Sequence record: PQ349265.1
DNA length: 64,000 nucleotides
Direction: 5' to 3' (one strand)
From: Escherichia phage CJY920
In this document: in pieces, positions 16,798-24,640 of the stretch
Layout: each line of letters starts with the position of its first letter
Position numbering within the stretch: the stretch's first letter is position 1
Made by a program: the position numbers and the translations under genes
The notes under the pieces: model-generated
Told to the model about the DNA's origin: nothing
The model's database searches: none
What the model saw: only the letters and a program-made list of their open reading frames with translations

Positions 16798-18172
<1,375 letters not shown>

Positions 18173-18426
18173 TAATTGAGGCCTGAGTATAAGGTGACTT
18201 ATACTTGTAATCTATCTAAACGGGGAACCTCTCTAGTAGACAATCCCGTGCTAAATGTTCTTTTGAACTAAATGCCTAACGACTATCCCTTTGGGGAGTA
18301 GGGTCAAGTGACTCGAAACGATAGACAACTTGCTTTAACAAGTTGGAGATATAGTCTGATCTGCATGGTGACATGCAGCTGGATATAATTCCGGGGTAAG
18401 ATTAACGACCTTATCTGAACATAATG
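18173..18426 (+). ncRNA. group I self-splicing intron in td, ORF-less (about 254 nt)
   Basis: Starts TAATTGAGGCCTGAG..., contains core GTAGGGTCAAGTGACTCGAAA and GATATAGTCTGATCTGCATGG, ends ...CTGAACATAATG; no ORF inside. Confidence 0.8.
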
Positions 18427-18738
18427 CTTCCATTTAATATTGCATCATATGCTGCGTTAGTTCATATTGTAGCTAAGATGTGTAATCTTATTCCAGGAGA
18501 TTTGATATTTTCTGGCGGTAATACTCATATCTATATGAATCACGTAGAACAATGTAAAGAAATTTTGCGTCGTGAACCTAAAGAGCTTTGTGAACTGGTA
18601 ATAGGCGGATTGCCTTATAAATTCCGCTATCTTTCTACTAAAGAACAATTGGAATATGTTCTTAAACTCAGGCCTAAAGATTTCGTTCTTAAAGGTTACG
18701 AATCACACCCTCCTATTAAAGGAAAAATGGCGGTGTAA
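18427..18738 (+). CDS. td: thymidylate synthase, exon 2 (103 codons)
   Basis: LPFNIASYAALVHIVAKMCNLIPGDLIFSGGNTHIYMNH... continues ThyA; exon 1 + exon 2 = 286 aa. Confidence 0.9.
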   Translation, partial: LPFNIASYAALVHIVAKMCNLIPGDLIFSGGNTHIYMNHVEQCKEILRREPKELCELVIGGLPYKFRYLSTKEQLEYVLKLRPKDFVLKGYESHPPIKGKMAV

Positions 18739-18761: not shown

Positions 18762-19007
18762 ATGATTTTACGATTTAAAGATACTTCTGGTGTCGTTCTT
18801 TTTACACTTCCTAATCCAAGTGAGTTAGAAGTTCCAGGACCAAATCAGCCTATTATCATTTATGGCAAAAAATATTATACTCATAAAATGACTCGTGAGT
18901 ATTTTGATAATAAAATTTCTACGGTTAAAACTTCTTCAGATTGTTATTATGATATTACTGTTTTAACGGAAAAACAATATGACGAATGCAGAACTTTAGC
19001 AGTATAA
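18762..19007 (+). CDS. hypothetical protein (81 aa)
   Basis: ATG ORF; its 3' end overlaps the 3' end of the antisense GIY-YIG gene by 12 bp. Confidence 0.4.
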
Positions 19008-19727
19008 ATATGATTCCCAGCAATCTAGAGCGCATCTTTTAGATATAAGTTTTCTGCTTATTCCGGTTTGACGCACAGCTTCTGCTATTGTTGGATATTC
19101 TACCCCATCTATACTTACTCTTAGATGGGGTTTCTTTTTACCTCTTTGTGAGTCAGAAATTCGTTTTCTAACTTCATTGGTATGTGTCTGTCCATAATAT
19201 GGATTATTGATGCCTTTCATATTAAGTGCAGCGTTTCTTTCTTGGAACTTTTTGCTTATTTCTATAGCACGATCTAACCCATAGTGTTCTTCTATAGTTT
19301 TACCTTTGATATCTCTAGGTCTACCATGTTTTTGCTTAAGTTCTTCTGGTGATAATTTTGAATTATTATTTTTAATTGCATTTGAAATTTTATTAAGGAT
19401 TTCTTGCTTTCTTGGGTGATGAGATAAGGTATCCCCAAATGATGCGTCTGCTATATTATACCCATTTTCCTTTGAGTCATATTCATGCATCCAATAATTT
19501 TCACGTTCAATAATGATAGATTTTTCGTATGGAAGTTCTTCTATGATTTTACATACGAAAGCATCTTTCCCATGCTTATTATAAGAACGCTGCAGCTTTA
19601 TTGAATGATGATTTCCATTATCTAAATCTTTAAAGTGTCGTTTCCATCGTTCTTCAAAATTAATTGCACTTCCTATATAGTGCTTATTAGTTTTAGTGTT
19701 TATAATAGCATATATTCCAGATTTCAT
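18996..19727 (-). CDS. GIY-YIG homing endonuclease, I-TevI-like catalytic domain (243 aa), free-standing and antisense
   Basis: N-terminus [35 protein letters not shown]... closely resembles the I-TevI GIY-YIG domain as recalled; C-terminal HTH-like [21 protein letters not shown]; own TATAAATA and AGGAGA upstream. Confidence 0.8.
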
Positions 19728-19749
19728 TATATTCTCCTATATAAAATTA

Positions 19750-19757
19750 TATTTATA
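19750..19757 (-). promoter_or_regulatory. late promoter TATAAATA for the GIY-YIG endonuclease gene
   Basis: Plus-strand TATTTATA is TATAAATA on the minus strand, about 22 nt upstream of the ATG. Confidence 0.6.
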
Positions 19758-19782
19758 TGGGGTAACTTACGACAGAGGACTT

Positions 19783-22063: not shown

Positions 22064-23656
22064 ATGTGGTTAACTAAGAATAACGCTATGTTTGATAATA
22101 TATACAAAAACGGAAAGTTTCTTCCATTTGGAGAAGAAAAACTTAAATCTAGACTAACAGAAGAAGATAAAGCTCTTCTAACTGATGGAATAGATTTTAA
22201 GCTCAATGTGTTCCAAATTATGGAAGGCATTGACATTAACGATCTAAAATGTGCAGTTTGTGGAAATTTCATTTCTCTGAAAACAGCAAAGAAACGTGTA
22301 TTTCCAGCAACATGTAGTAAATCCTGCTCAGGGATATTTTTCGCGGATAAGAGAATTCAAAGCCGTGATACAAATTTTGGCGGAAAAGAAAAATATAAAA
22401 AATATTTGTCTGAACTTCAACACAAAAATTCTTTAGAAAAATATGGAACAACTCATCAAAAAATTTCAAGAAATAAAAATAGAAAAACTTTAATTGAACG
22501 ATATGGGGTAACGCATAATTCACAATTAGAAAGTGTGAAAGAAGCGAGAAAAGTTATAGAAAACGGTAAATCAGTTGATATTCTGAATTCTAAAAAATCT
22601 CGCGAAAAATCTAAGAAGACTAAATTAAATTGGACTGAAGAATATAAGGCATCGTTATATTCATCTATAGGAAAATCTATTAAAAATAACGGTCATATTA
22701 ATCATGATATACTAGATAAAATCAATTACAAAATTTCTATAGAAGAACTACAACAATTAGCAAATTGTTCTCGGATGACGGCTTATAGAGCTCTTTCATC
22801 CAAAGGACTAATTGACGTTCATTATACTCAAAGTTCTATAGAGCAATTCATTTTAGATCTAGGATTTGATTGCGTAGAAACTAGAAAAATTATTCCTCCG
22901 TATGAATTAGATATTTACATTCCTGAGAAAAAATTGGCTATAGAATACGATGGAATTTATTGGCATTCTAGCGGGTCAAAGGAAACAGATAAAATTAAAG
23001 AAACTTATCATTTGATGAAGACAGAGATGTGTGAAGCACAAGGAATTCAATTACTTCACATCTTCGAAAATGAATGGATTGATGATACAAAAAGAGAGAT
23101 CTGGAAATCCATTATAAAGCATAAATTAGGATTATCAGAAAGAATACCAGCCCGAAAATGCAAAGCACGGTTTGTTAATAAGGATGAGGCAAAAGAATTT
23201 ATTAATAAGAATCATCTTCAAGGATTTTGCTCAGGAGCTCATACGTATAAAGGACTTTATTACAATAATGAGTTAGTTCAAATTATTTCTATCGGTAAAT
23301 CTAGATATAGCTCAGGTGATGAACTTTTAAGGATGTGTTCAAAATTAGGGGTTTGTGTTGTAGGAGGAGCCTCAAAATTATTAAAAGGAATTAATTGTCT
23401 ATCTTATGGCAATCGAAGATGGTGCAGTACATTATCAAATGTTTATGACTCTGTCATGGAATTTAGTCATATCTCTGAGCCATGTTATTGGTACGTCGAT
23501 AAAGGAGAGGTATTTCACCGCTCAAGCTATATGAAACATAAGCTTAAAAACAAGCTTAAAAATTATGATGATACAATAACTGAAGTAGAAAATTGTTATG
23601 CAAATGGTCTTAGAAGAATCTGGGACTGTGGAAATTTAGTTTACAGGACAAAATAA
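22064..23656 (+). CDS. putative free-standing homing endonuclease (530 aa): zinc-finger-like N-terminus, tandem YG-TH repeats, Vsr/DUF559-like nuclease core
   Basis: Cys cluster CAVCGNF...CSKSCSG; repeats EKYGTTHQKIS / ERYGVTHNSQ; core PYELDIYIPEKKLAIEYDGIYWHS...GIQLLHIFENEW resembles DUF559/Vsr-type PD-(D/E)xK nucleases; sits at the nrdA-nrdB position where T4 has mobE. Confidence 0.55.
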   Translation: MWLTKNNAMFDNIYKNGKFLPFGEEKLKSRLTEEDKALLTDGIDFKLNVFQIMEGIDINDLKCAVCGNFISLKTAKKRVFPATCSKSCSGIFFADKRIQSRDTNFGGKEKYKKYLSELQHKNSLEKYGTTHQKISRNKNRKTLIERYGVTHNSQLESVKEARKVIENGKSVDILNSKKSREKSKKTKLNWTEEYKASLYSSIGKSIKNNGHINHDILDKINYKISIEELQQLANCSRMTAYRALSSKGLIDVHYTQSSIEQFILDLGFDCVETRKIIPPYELDIYIPEKKLAIEYDGIYWHSSGSKETDKIKETYHLMKTEMCEAQGIQLLHIFENEWIDDTKREIWKSIIKHKLGLSERIPARKCKARFVNKDEAKEFINKNHLQGFCSGAHTYKGLYYNNELVQIISIGKSRYSSGDELLRMCSKLGVCVVGGASKLLKGINCLSYGNRRWCSTLSNVYDSVMEFSHISEPCYWYVDKGEVFHRSSYMKHKLKNKLKNYDDTITEVENCYANGLRRIWDCGNLVYRTK

Positions 23657-24331: not shown

Positions 24332-24640
24332 AAAATGCGCCTTTAAGCAGTAATGCTTATCGAAAACTCCTTTAATTGCTGGAAAATCCAGAAATGGAAA
24401 ACTAGCAGCCAAGGTTTTGCTTGCACCTTTAATTAGTATCATATTATAAATATGATTATACTTTTAAGAGGATGCACAATTGCAAAGCAAGGTTCAACGA
24501 CTAGTCTTCGGACGTAGGGTCAAGCGACTCGAAATGGGGAGAATCCCTCTGGGATTGTGATATAGTCTGGTCTGCATAGTAATATGTAGCAGTTCATAAG
24601 AGAACGGGTTGAGAATTAGCGAGCTCAATCGAACATAACG
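24332..24640 (+). ncRNA. group I self-splicing intron in nrdB, ORF-less (about 309 nt; boundaries within a few nt)
   Basis: Core GTAGGGTCAAGCGACTCGAAA and GATATAGTCTGGTCTGCAT paralogous to the td intron core; ends ...GAACATAACG; no ORF inside. Confidence 0.7.

What the first reader, a model, noticed from the sequence alone, without database searches (positions are those of the whole stretch)
18173..18426. td group I intron present but ORF-less (about 254 nt)
td is split at the canonical ...VFLG | LPFNIASYA... site by an intron with a recognisable group IA2 core, but it has no room for an endonuclease gene. The T4 td intron as I recall it is about 1 kb and encodes I-TevI. An ORF-less natural intron suggests either endonuclease loss after fixation or acquisition of a minimal intron.
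Basis: partly seen in the sequence, partly recalled or inferred. Interest (0 to 1): 0.55.

Follow-up and report, generated by a model that had tools for sequence, protein, structure and literature searches.

The report
Endonuclease-less td intron with nrdD-type hairpin
The thymidylate synthase gene of this T4-like phage carries a 254-base self-splicing intron that has lost its homing-endonuclease gene, and the 12-base hairpin left in its place is identical to one from the sister intron in nrdD, which points to intron-to-intron gene conversion rather than plain deletion.

Summary
Removing it restores a 286-aa Td, and no ORF longer than 32 aa fits inside.

Intron nt 1-84 equal T4 td intron nt 1-84. 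Nt 97-254 equal T4 nt 859-1016 with one mismatch. T4 nt 85-858, which hold almost all of I-TevI, are replaced by GTTCTTTTGAAC, a 4-bp hairpin.

This is not unique. About 40 phage records carry shortened td introns of 250, 254, 262/263, about 320 and about 445 nt. Most are deletions between short direct repeats.

The 254-nt class differs. Its cap plus flanks (71 nt) is identical to a common nrdD-intron allele. A second 254-nt allele (GRNsp7) carries exactly the P6a hairpin of T4's own nrdD intron. The likeliest origin is nrdD-to-td gene conversion that purged I-TevI.

The intron should splice like T4's. It cannot home by itself, but it still splits the I-TevI target site. A free-standing I-TevI paralogue 560 bp downstream could mobilise it in trans, but it also occurs beside intronless td.

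Verdict: an ordinary kind of element (a degenerate mobile intron) with an unusually informative origin. Interest is moderate.

The parts
17624..18172 (+). td exon 1 (183 codons, ends ...VFLG). It contains the I-TevI cleavage motif CAACG at 18146..18150. The last 7 nt, CUUGGGU (18166..18172), form the 5' strand of P1.
   Evidence: exon 1 is 549/549 identical to phage ECO07P1
18173..18426 (+). td group I intron, 254 nt, with no endonuclease ORF. Its first codon, UAA (18173..18175), is an in-frame stop for ribosomes on unspliced RNA. The last base, G18426, is the omega-G.
   Evidence: Rfam RF00028, 75.7 bits, E 2e-17. Nt 1-84 and 97-254 match the T4 td intron with 1 mismatch. Structure counts: 98.7% of cells paired and 14 pairs with compensatory change.
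18181..18187 (+). Internal guide sequence GCCUGAG, the 3' strand of P1. It pairs with exon CUUGGGU, with a U.G pair at the splice site.
   Evidence: read from the sequence; P1 is also in the Rfam alignment; the td substrate oligo UUGGGU is quoted in PMC2729099
18215..18285 (+). 71-nt tract (intron nt 43-113: P3 3' end, P4, P5, P6, P6a, J6/7, P7 5' strand) that is identical to the L079-type nrdD intron.
   Evidence: longest common substring of 71 nt; that nrdD allele is 100% identical in N2, 236Ecol005PP, GRNsp7, HY03 and others
18257..18268 (+). P6a cap GUUC-UUUU-GAAC. It stands where T4 has nt 85-858, which hold almost all of the I-TevI gene.
   Evidence: all 4 pairs covary across td and nrdD alleles; 41 of 43 distinct caps of this intron family form stems of at least 4 bp, against 3% of shuffled caps
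18281..18285 (+). P7 5' strand (GACUA). It pairs with 18352..18356 (UAGUC) to form the guanosine-binding helix, a pseudoknot with P3.
   Evidence: 5/5 pairs kept in all 7 sequences, but none of them varies, so the counts are uninformative for this helix
18427..18738 (+). td exon 2 (LPFNIASYA... to the stop codon).
18996..19727 (-). Free-standing GIY-YIG homing-endonuclease gene (243 aa), a paralogue of I-TevI. The cassette at about 18988..19774 replaces T4's nrdA.1. It is a possible trans-mobiliser of the intron; the link is not established.
   Evidence: 46% identity to I-TevI over the full length; Pfam GIY-YIG and NUMOD3 pass their curated cut-offs, and I-TevI_DNA-bd scores 21.4 bits, below its cut-off of 27; distribution; cassette edges

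Best explanation
This is the T4-type td group I (IA2) intron in a form that has lost its homing-endonuclease gene. The RNA should fold into the same P1-P9.2 ribozyme as T4's intron and excise itself by the usual guanosine-initiated two-step transesterification, restoring thymidylate synthase mRNA (inferred from sequence identity, not shown). Without I-TevI it cannot start its own homing. It persists for three reasons: only a base-perfect excision would leave td functional; it still splits the I-TevI recognition site and so should protect td from I-TevI of co-infecting phages; and it avoids the known conflict between I-TevI translation and splicing. The endonuclease gene was most likely removed by homologous recombination (gene conversion) with the paralogous nrdD (sunY) intron, not by random deletion. 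The segment between two sequence blocks shared by the two introns was overwritten with the nrdD intron's own 12-nt P6a hairpin. That segment is td's long P6a together with almost all of the I-TevI gene. The resulting allele either arose directly in, or was recombined into, a td gene otherwise identical to one that carries the full I-TevI+ intron.
For: Ribozyme. Rfam gives a full-length hit, E 2e-17. All intron bases outside the 12-nt cap match the experimentally self-splicing T4 td intron, with one mismatch in J7/9. The thermodynamic centroid fold recovers P2, P3, P4, P5, P6, P6a, P7.1, P7.2, P8, P9 and P9.1. On an alignment of 5 td and 2 nrdD introns, 98.7% of cells are paired and 14 pairs show compensatory change; 0 of 500 shuffles reach that, and slid controls pair 33-39% of cells. 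td constructs with shortened or mutated P6a self-splice in vitro (PMC2729099). The spliced ORF is intact. Origin. The cap plus flanks (71 nt) is identical to the L079-type nrdD intron. That allele is present at 100% identity in N2 and 236Ecol005PP, which also have the GUUC-cap td intron. It also occurs in genomes with the I-TevI+ td intron (HY03, pSe_SNUABM_01 and ELT1 at 100%, LH2 at 99.3%), which is the substrate configuration. A second 254-nt td allele (GRNsp7) has the cap CAGCAGTAGCTG, which equals T4's own nrdD P6a. That cap occurs 24 times in nrdD and once in td. The GUUC cap occurs in about 46 nrdD records against 3 database td records with the exact cap, plus SEA1 with the same stem and a different loop. 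P6a is the most variable part of this intron family: 43 distinct caps in 65 instances. No other family member shares td's 30-nt upstream flank; the closest has 2 mismatches. Identity by descent or by chance is therefore unlikely. The other short td classes keep td's own P6a stem or I-TevI remnants and look like plain deletions between short repeats. Background. Exon 1 is 549/549 identical to ECO07P1, which has the 1016-nt I-TevI+ intron, whereas other phages' exon 1 is only about 75-83% identical. Cost of the ORF. Deregulated I-TevI translation lowers td splicing (PMC2988022).
Against: No splicing data exist for this phage. The direction of the td/nrdD exchange rests on allele frequencies and parsimony, not on a rooted history. 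The L079-type nrdD intron itself has td-type P4-P5 sequence, so a single td(ORF-less)-to-nrdD conversion could also explain the 71-nt identity. The window does not include nrdD, so this phage's own nrdD intron is unknown. Its closest td relative, ECO07P1, has an intronless nrdD. For the GRNsp7-type event the flanking homology is only 8 nt on each side. HMD-9 has the GUUC-cap td intron but no second intron match. The laboratory precedents for T4 inter-intron recombination (Hall, Liu and Shub 1989; Bryk and Belfort 1990) are cited from memory and could not be read here.
Confidence: 0.68

Rival explanations
1. Plain deletion. I-TevI was lost from the td intron by illegitimate recombination or replication slippage, as in the other short classes, and the 12-nt hairpin is a by-product or later repair of the junction.
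For: Deletion clearly happens in this intron. The 445-nt class joins at the direct repeat CATTTTAAA. The 320-nt class keeps the I-TevI C-terminal coding sequence. The 262/263-nt class keeps T4's P6a stem closed by UUUG. The neighbouring nrdB intron lost its I-TevIII remnant between 7-nt repeats ACAATTG.
Against: The 12 nt have no counterpart at the T4 deletion endpoints. They are identical to an nrdD-intron hairpin, and a second td allele carries a different nrdD hairpin. Two such coincidences are very unlikely in the most variable element of the family.
Confidence: 0.08
2. Ancestral minimal intron. The 254-nt form is the original ORF-less td intron, into which I-TevI later inserted, and ORF-less td introns donated their P4-P6a segment to nrdD introns (direction td to nrdD).
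For: Group I introns are thought to be ancestrally ORF-less (PMC3073962). Short P6a hairpins are the rule in 58 related viral loci. The L079-type nrdD intron has td-type P4-P5, unlike T4's nrdD intron, so one td-to-nrdD conversion could explain the 71-nt tract. A GUUC stem also occurs in the diverged Gelderlandvirus td intron of SEA1.
Against: Two different 'ancestral' td caps would each have had to be donated to nrdD. Both caps are far commoner in nrdD (24:1 and about 46:4). The rest of the window's intron is base-identical to I-TevI+ alleles, and its exon 1 is identical to that of an I-TevI+ phage, which indicates a recent event rather than an old separate lineage.
Confidence: 0.17
3. Trans or collaborative homing. 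The ORF-less intron is still effectively mobile because the free-standing I-TevI paralogue 560 bp downstream (18996..19727, minus strand) cuts HEG-less genomes in or near td, so the intron is co-converted with it. This is an add-on to the best explanation, not an alternative to it.
For: The gene is intact, 46% identical to I-TevI with the same domain order. It lies within the roughly 2-kb co-conversion range reported for T4 homing (PMC2790892). Homologues sit convergent to the td 3' end in Klebsiella, Acinetobacter and other E. coli phages. There is precedent in mobE with the nrdB intron and in F-CphI with the psbA intron. N2 and the window both combine it with the 254-nt intron.
Against: The same HEG (99% identical) sits next to intronless td in ECO07P5 and Ozark, and next to I-TevI+ td in RPN226, sutha, LH2 and TB004. 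It is therefore not coupled to the intron, and it evidently tolerates an intact intron-insertion site in its own genome. In the window the HEG-linked haplotype and td exon 1 have different closest relatives. The enzyme's target is unknown, and it lacks I-TevI's zinc finger.
Confidence: 0.25
4. Dead element. The sequence is a decayed intron that no longer splices, td is a pseudogene, and the phage relies on host thyA.
For: Nothing specific, beyond the fact that splicing has not been tested.
Against: The core is identical to a working ribozyme. Both exons are open and conserved. The same architecture is kept in several independent phages with compensatory changes in P6a and P8.
Confidence: 0.02

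Closest known systems
Phage T4 td intron (group IA2, 1016 nt, encodes I-TevI)
   Same: Same gene and same insertion site. Intron nt 1-84 and the last 158 nt are identical except for 1 base. P1-P9.2 are the same, including P7.1/P7.2.
   Different: T4 nt 85-858 are absent. They comprise the long P6a, the I-TevI late promoter/operator, the RBS hairpin and almost all of the ORF. A 12-nt hairpin replaces them, so there is no autonomous homing and no I-TevI autoregulation.
T-even nrdD (sunY) intron, L079-type and T4-type alleles
   Same: The short 4-bp/4-nt P6a hairpin. The L079-type shares 71 identical nt with the window's td intron, and the T4-type cap equals the GRNsp7 td cap.
   Different: Different host gene and different P1, P2, P7.1, P7.2 and P8. 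The nrdD intron carries its endonuclease (I-TevII-like) downstream of P9, not in P6a.
Laboratory ORF-deleted or shortened-P6a td introns, used for splicing and crystallisation work
   Same: About 250-270 nt, I-TevI removed, P6a shortened, still self-splicing (PMC2729099).
   Different: Those are engineered. This one is a natural allele, and its cap is borrowed from another natural intron.
T4 nrdB intron with defunct I-TevIII, mobilised in trans by mobE
   Same: A T-even intron whose own HEG has decayed, with a free-standing HEG next door (PMC2790892). The window's own nrdB intron (24332..24640) is a further-deleted form.
   Different: For nrdB, trans homing was shown experimentally. For td here the neighbouring HEG's target is unknown and its distribution is uncoupled from the intron.
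Recombination between T4 introns in the laboratory (Hall, Liu and Shub 1989, Nature 340:575; Bryk and Belfort 1990, Nature 346:394; recalled, not read here)
   Same: Exchange of intron segments through the short conserved core sequences shared by the td, nrdB and sunY introns, giving functional chimeras.
   Different: Those events were selected in the laboratory. Here the chimera is found in natural isolates, and its effect is loss of the homing endonuclease.
Collaborative homing (cyanophage S-PM2 psbA intron with F-CphI; T7-like phage DNA polymerase intron with a free-standing HNH)
   Same: An ORF-less intron with a free-standing HEG encoded nearby.
   Different: In those systems the HEG cuts the intron-insertion site. 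Here that is untested, and the HEG coexists with intronless td.

Membership tests
Group I self-splicing intron (Rfam RF00028) | Match to the covariance model above the curated threshold | tested here: met
   75.7 bits against a gathering score of 50, E 2e-17, model positions 1-253
Group I self-splicing intron (Rfam RF00028) | P1 formed by the 5' exon end and an internal guide sequence, with U.G at the splice site; intron ends in G | tested here: met
   CUUGGGU (18166..18172) pairs with GCCUGAG (18181..18187); U18172 pairs with G18181; the last base is G18426
Group I self-splicing intron (Rfam RF00028) | Conserved core helices P3-P8, including the P7 guanosine-binding helix, supported by covariation | tested here: met
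   58 pairs, 98.7% of cells paired, 14 pairs with double changes, 0/500 shuffles as good, slid controls 33-39%. The P7 pairs themselves never vary in this set.
Group I self-splicing intron (Rfam RF00028) | Excision restores an intact host reading frame | tested here: met
   286-aa Td, 253/286 identical to T4 Td
Group I self-splicing intron (Rfam RF00028) | GTP-dependent self-splicing observed | not testable with these tools
   Inferred from 241/242 identity to the T4 td intron outside the cap and from splicing of shortened-P6a td constructs
Subgroup IA2 (T4 td/nrdB/sunY type) | Extra helices P7.1 and P7.2 between P7 and P3' | tested here: met
   Both hairpins are in the centroid fold and are kept with compensatory changes (helices 8-10)
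Mobile (homing) group I intron | Intron-encoded homing endonuclease ORF | tested here: not met
   Longest internal ORFs are 31-32 aa; the I-TevI region of T4 is absent
Collaborative or trans homing pair (ORF-less intron plus nearby free-standing HEG) | Intact free-standing HEG within co-conversion distance (about 2 kb) of the intron | tested here: met
   243-aa GIY-YIG gene at 18996..19727 (minus strand), 570 bp from the intron's 3' end; distance criterion from PMC2790892
Collaborative or trans homing pair (ORF-less intron plus nearby free-standing HEG) | The HEG cleaves at or near the intron-insertion site of intronless alleles | not testable with these tools
   No way to predict the target; the DNA-binding half is diverged from I-TevI and lacks the zinc finger
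Collaborative or trans homing pair (ORF-less intron plus nearby free-standing HEG) | Intron and HEG co-inherited across genomes | tested here: not met
   The same HEG occurs with intronless td (ECO07P5, Ozark, Jiaodavirus), with I-TevI+ td (RPN226, sutha, LH2, TB004) and with ORF-less td (N2, window)

The most novel reading that the evidence does not exclude
Paralogous introns within T-even genomes act as repair templates for one another. The nrdD intron has repeatedly overwritten the I-TevI-bearing P6a of the td intron, at least twice independently and with two different nrdD alleles. This gives a templated, recurrent route by which a phage sheds a homing endonuclease while keeping the protective, precisely spliced intron. 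Combined with the I-TevI paralogue parked next to td in many phage genera, the td locus would then display every stage of the homing-endonuclease life cycle in natural isolates: free-standing HEG, HEG in the intron, decaying HEG and purged intron.
Probability: 0.55. Interest if true: 0.6.

Novelty: new variant of a known kind. Interest (0 to 1): 0.42.

Why it matters
The td/I-TevI intron is the textbook mobile group I intron. A 2010 review of T4-related genomes states that all three T-even introns described by then encode their own endonucleases (PMC2993671). Natural endonuclease-less td introns show the 'death' half of the homing cycle in that same model system. The nrdD-type hairpin suggests a specific, testable mechanism for how the endonuclease is lost without harming an essential-pathway gene. 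On the practical side, such introns are annotated in databases only as two td CDSs, so intron and HEG surveys of T4-like phages miscount them. The 254-nt natural form is also a ready-made minimal td ribozyme.

Tried and rejected
1. Literature. Seven full-text searches found no paper describing natural ORF-less td introns or td/nrdD chimeras. The key survey (Sandegren and Sjoberg 2004, JBC) and the SegH/Hef paper are not held, so prior description cannot be excluded.
2. Exact allele. No phage record has this exact allele. The best is 97.6% (N2, 236Ecol005PP, HMD-9), whose 3' half differs in P8, P9 and P9.2. IMG/VR has no GUUC-NNNN-GAAC cap.
3. Obligate intron/HEG partnership. I considered that the free-standing I-TevI paralogue is the intron's obligate partner. 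This was rejected because the same HEG sits beside intronless and I-TevI+ td.
4. Donor in the closest td relative. I looked for the donor nrdD intron in ECO07P1, but its nrdD is intronless. The window itself does not reach nrdD; it holds only two Rfam intron hits.
5. Family-wide conservation. I tested whether the 71-nt identity merely reflects conservation across the intron family. It does not: no other member matches td's 30-nt upstream flank, and the closest has 2 mismatches.
6. Rfam on L079. Rfam at gathering threshold gives no hit on the L079 nrdD intron. It was identified instead by its flanking NrdD/NrdG ORFs and by alignment to T4's sunY region.
7. Co-conversion tract. Mismatch maps of exon 2 and downstream sequence show heavy mosaicism but no clean tract linking the HEG to the intron.

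Full report
**Observation**

The window is from a T4-like (Tequatrovirus) genome with the gene order frd, td, nrdA, nrdB, denA, rnlA. No database phage is closer than about 96% over 24 kb.

- Exon 1 is 17624..18172 and ends TTC TTG GGT (...VFLG).
- The intron is 18173..18426 (254 nt, from TAATTGAGG to CATAATG).
- Exon 2 is 18427..18738 and starts CTT CCA TTT AAT (LPFN...).

Rfam's group I intron model matches 18163..18378 at 75.7 bits (threshold 50), E 2e-17, across the whole model. The joined exons encode a 286-aa Td that is 253/286 identical to T4's. The largest ORFs inside the intron are 31-32 aa. The first intron codon is an in-frame UAA, so ribosomes on unspliced RNA stop at the intron's edge. 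The intron's final ATG explains why databases annotate exon 2 as a separate 'thymidylate synthase' CDS.

**Anatomy**

Compared with the 1016-nt T4 td intron (I-TevI ORF at nt 132-869), the window's intron breaks down as follows:
- Nt 1-84 are identical to T4 nt 1-84.
- Nt 97-254 equal T4 nt 859-1016, with one mismatch in J7/9.
- T4 nt 85-858 are replaced by the 12 nt GTTCTTTTGAAC (18257..18268).

Every catalytic element is therefore T4's own: P1 (exon CUUGGGU with guide GCCUGAG, U.G at the splice site), P2-P6, P7, the IA2-specific P7.1/P7.2, P8, P9-P9.2 and the terminal G.

An unconstrained fold recovers P2, P3, P4, P5, P6, a 4-bp P6a (GUUC/GAAC, loop UUUU), P7.1, P7.2, P8, P9 and P9.1 in the centroid.

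I counted that structure, plus P7 as a pseudoknot, on an alignment of five td and two nrdD introns:

| Measure | Result |
|---|---|
| Cells paired | 98.7% |
| Pairs with changes on both sides | 14 |
| Shuffles (of 500) as good | 0 |
| Cells paired after sliding the partners | 33-39% |

All four P6a pairs covary. The P7 pairs are kept in every sequence but never vary, so they neither add to nor subtract from the support.

td constructs with shortened or mutated P6a self-splice in vitro (PMC2729099). Splicing of this natural form is therefore a strong inference, but it is not demonstrated here.

**Not a one-off**

About 40 phage records carry td introns in which I-TevI is truncated or gone, against roughly 180 with the full-length form. 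They fall into size classes:

| Size (nt) | Examples | What remains |
|---|---|---|
| ~445 | G28, F1, vB_EcoM_112 | Truncated I-TevI; joined at the direct repeat CATTTTAAA |
| ~320 | HP3, MLP2, Shinka | Still holds the last ~20 I-TevI codons |
| 262/263 | PD112, CE1, BYEP01, 215Ecol030PP | T4's own 8-bp P6a stem, closed by UUUG |
| 254 | N2, 236Ecol005PP, HMD-9; GRNsp7 | 12-nt cap (two different caps) |
| 250 | SEA1 (a Gelderlandvirus) | GUUC stem with a GAAA loop |

The first three classes are ordinary deletions between short repeats. The same is true of this phage's nrdB intron (24332..24640, 309 nt). It equals T4's 598-nt nrdB intron minus the I-TevIII remnant, joined at a 7-nt repeat ACAATTG.

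**Where the 12-nt cap comes from**

The 254-nt class does not look like a deletion scar.

- A metagenome scan for the cap found one contig (L079). It is a T-even nrdD (sunY) intron followed by an I-TevII-like ORF, NrdD exon 2 and NrdG.
- That intron shares a 71-nt identical tract with the window's td intron: intron nt 43-113, window 18215..18285, covering P4-P5-P6-P6a-P6'-J6/7-P7.
- The same nrdD allele is present at 100% identity in many Tequatroviruses. These include N2 and 236Ecol005PP, which also have the GUUC-cap td intron. They also include HY03, pSe_SNUABM_01 and ELT1, which still have the I-TevI+ td intron; LH2 carries the same nrdD allele at 99.3%. The substrate configuration therefore exists in nature.
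- The other 254-nt allele, in GRNsp7, has the cap CAGCAGTAGCTG. That is exactly the P6a hairpin of T4's own nrdD intron.
- In the database that cap occurs 24 times in nrdD introns and once in td. The GUUC cap occurs in about 46 nrdD records, against 3 td records with the exact cap plus SEA1, which shares the stem only.

P6a is the most variable element of this intron family. In 58 viral loci that share the flanking motif there are 43 different caps. Of these, 41 form a stem of at least 4 bp, against 3% of shuffled caps. None of those loci shares td's 30-nt upstream flank.

Two different td caps matching two different nrdD caps is best explained by transfer of the nrdD hairpin into the td intron. 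The transfer would go through the sequence blocks the two introns share (42 and 17 nt for the L079-type allele), overwriting td's long P6a together with I-TevI. Recombination between T4 introns through shared core sequences has been seen in the laboratory (Hall, Liu and Shub 1989; Bryk and Belfort 1990). I cite those from memory because they are not in the library.

The reverse direction cannot be excluded: an old ORF-less td lineage donating to nrdD. The L079-type nrdD intron has td-type P4-P5, so this would need only one event for the GUUC cap. It is less parsimonious, however, because it requires two 'ancestral' td caps, each donated to nrdD and each now rare in td.

**The background of this particular allele**

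td exon 1 is unusually variable among these phages (about 75-83% identity). Yet the window's exon 1 is 549/549 identical to that of phage ECO07P1. The intron flanks and the first 200 nt of exon 2 are also nearly identical. ECO07P1 carries the full 1016-nt I-TevI+ intron. The window and ECO07P1 therefore differ essentially by the swap 'P6a plus I-TevI' versus '12-nt cap'.

The window's 3' half is T4/T6-type, while the N2 group's 3' half differs in P8 (a compensatory A-U to U-A change), P9 and P9.2. The window's allele is thus either a fresh conversion in an ECO07P1-like td gene or a recombinant. ECO07P1 itself has no nrdD intron, and the window does not include nrdD, so I cannot say which.

**How it works**

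Shown by sequence:
- An intact td-type ribozyme.
- Intact exons.
- No endonuclease gene.

Inferred:
- It self-splices like T4's intron.
- It cannot home autonomously.
- It should keep td immune to I-TevI, because the intron still splits the recognition site. The CAACG cleavage motif is still present in exon 1 at 18146..18150, so a precise intron loss would recreate a target.
- It removes the documented conflict between I-TevI translation and splicing (PMC2988022).

**Possible mobilisation in trans**

A free-standing GIY-YIG gene lies at 18996..19727 on the minus strand (243 aa). It is 46% identical to I-TevI over its whole length, with GIY-YIG, NUMOD3 and a weak I-TevI-type DNA-binding match but no zinc finger. 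It starts 570 bp from the intron's 3' end, within the roughly 2-kb co-conversion range known for T4 homing (PMC2790892). Homologues sit next to td in Klebsiella, Acinetobacter and other E. coli phage genera.

However, the same gene (99% identical) lies beside intronless td in ECO07P5 and Ozark, and beside I-TevI+ td in RPN226, sutha, LH2 and TB004. It is not coupled to the intron, and it clearly tolerates an intact insertion site in its own genome. I treat trans homing as possible but unproven.

**Comparison with what is known, and verdict**

This is a member of the group I/IA2 family. It is the td intron lineage, but it fails the defining feature of a mobile intron, namely an encoded HEG. Endonuclease decay is the expected end of the homing cycle (PMC5009752). 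ORF-less group I introns are common, and dozens of unremarked database genomes have short td introns, so the bare observation is not surprising.

Two points go beyond the ordinary:
- A 2010 review states that the T-even introns described until then all encode their own HEGs (PMC2993671). I found no paper in the held library describing ORF-less td introns.
- The cap identities point to natural inter-intron gene conversion as the way I-TevI was purged.

I rate it a new variant of a known kind, of moderate interest.

Noticed in passing
window 24332..24640 (+): [quoted passage not shown] It equals T4's 598-nt nrdB intron minus the defective I-TevIII remnant, joined at a 7-nt direct repeat ACAATTG. 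The same short form occurs in PD112, CE1, BYEP01 and SP21535. PD112, CE1 and BYEP01 also have short td introns (SP21535's td match is cut by the record start), so HEG loss at the two loci co-occurs.
   Followed up: partly
window 18996..19727 (-); cassette about 18988..19774: A free-standing 243-aa GIY-YIG homing-endonuclease gene, 46% identical to I-TevI along its whole length but without the zinc finger. It replaces T4's nrdA.1 and clips the nrdA.2-like DUF5496 gene (18762..19007). Homologues lie convergent to the td 3' end in Klebsiella Jiaodavirus, E. coli phage EcS1 and Acinetobacter Lazarusvirus, all with intronless td. It looks like a td-locus-specific family of free-standing I-TevI relatives.
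   Followed up: partly
window 22064..23656 (+): A 530-aa ORF lies between nrdA and nrdB, where T4 has mobE. It has only a weak PD-(D/E)xK-type Pfam hit (REase_MTES_1575, E 1.7e-4, below the cut-off). It may be a Hef-like free-standing homing endonuclease that could mobilise the ORF-less nrdB intron in trans.
   Followed up: no
window 17624..18172 versus loci L002, L003, L013, L018: td exon 1 is hypervariable between Tequatroviruses (about 75-83% nt identity to RPN226, ECO07P5, HP3 and the T4 frd-td region). The intron core is about 100% identical, and exon 2 is mostly at least 90% identical. The region is a dense recombination mosaic, with break points at or inside the intron.
   Followed up: partly
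L079 63..265 and phage records: A second, widespread nrdD-intron allele (L079-type) differs from T4's classical sunY intron through P1-P2, P7.1-P8 and P9.1. It carries td-type P4-P5 sequence, so domain exchange between the td and nrdD introns may have gone both ways. Rfam's gathering threshold misses this intron.
   Followed up: partly
IMG/VR loci L019-L076 (for example L054 and L033): The motif CCCGTGCTAAAT-hairpin-TAAATGCCNAACGACTA recurs in 58 viral contigs. Some loci hold up to four copies within about 1.5 kb. This indicates a large family of td-like, mostly ORF-less introns in other phages, including multi-intron genes.
   Followed up: no
L008 2001..2250 (Salmonella phage SEA1, Gelderlandvirus): A 250-nt ORF-less td intron has the same GUUC/GAAC stem but a GAAA loop, in a core otherwise like the I-TevI-like-HEG-bearing intron of Melville (same genus). 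This cap is unique in the phage database, and its source is unexplained.
   Followed up: partly
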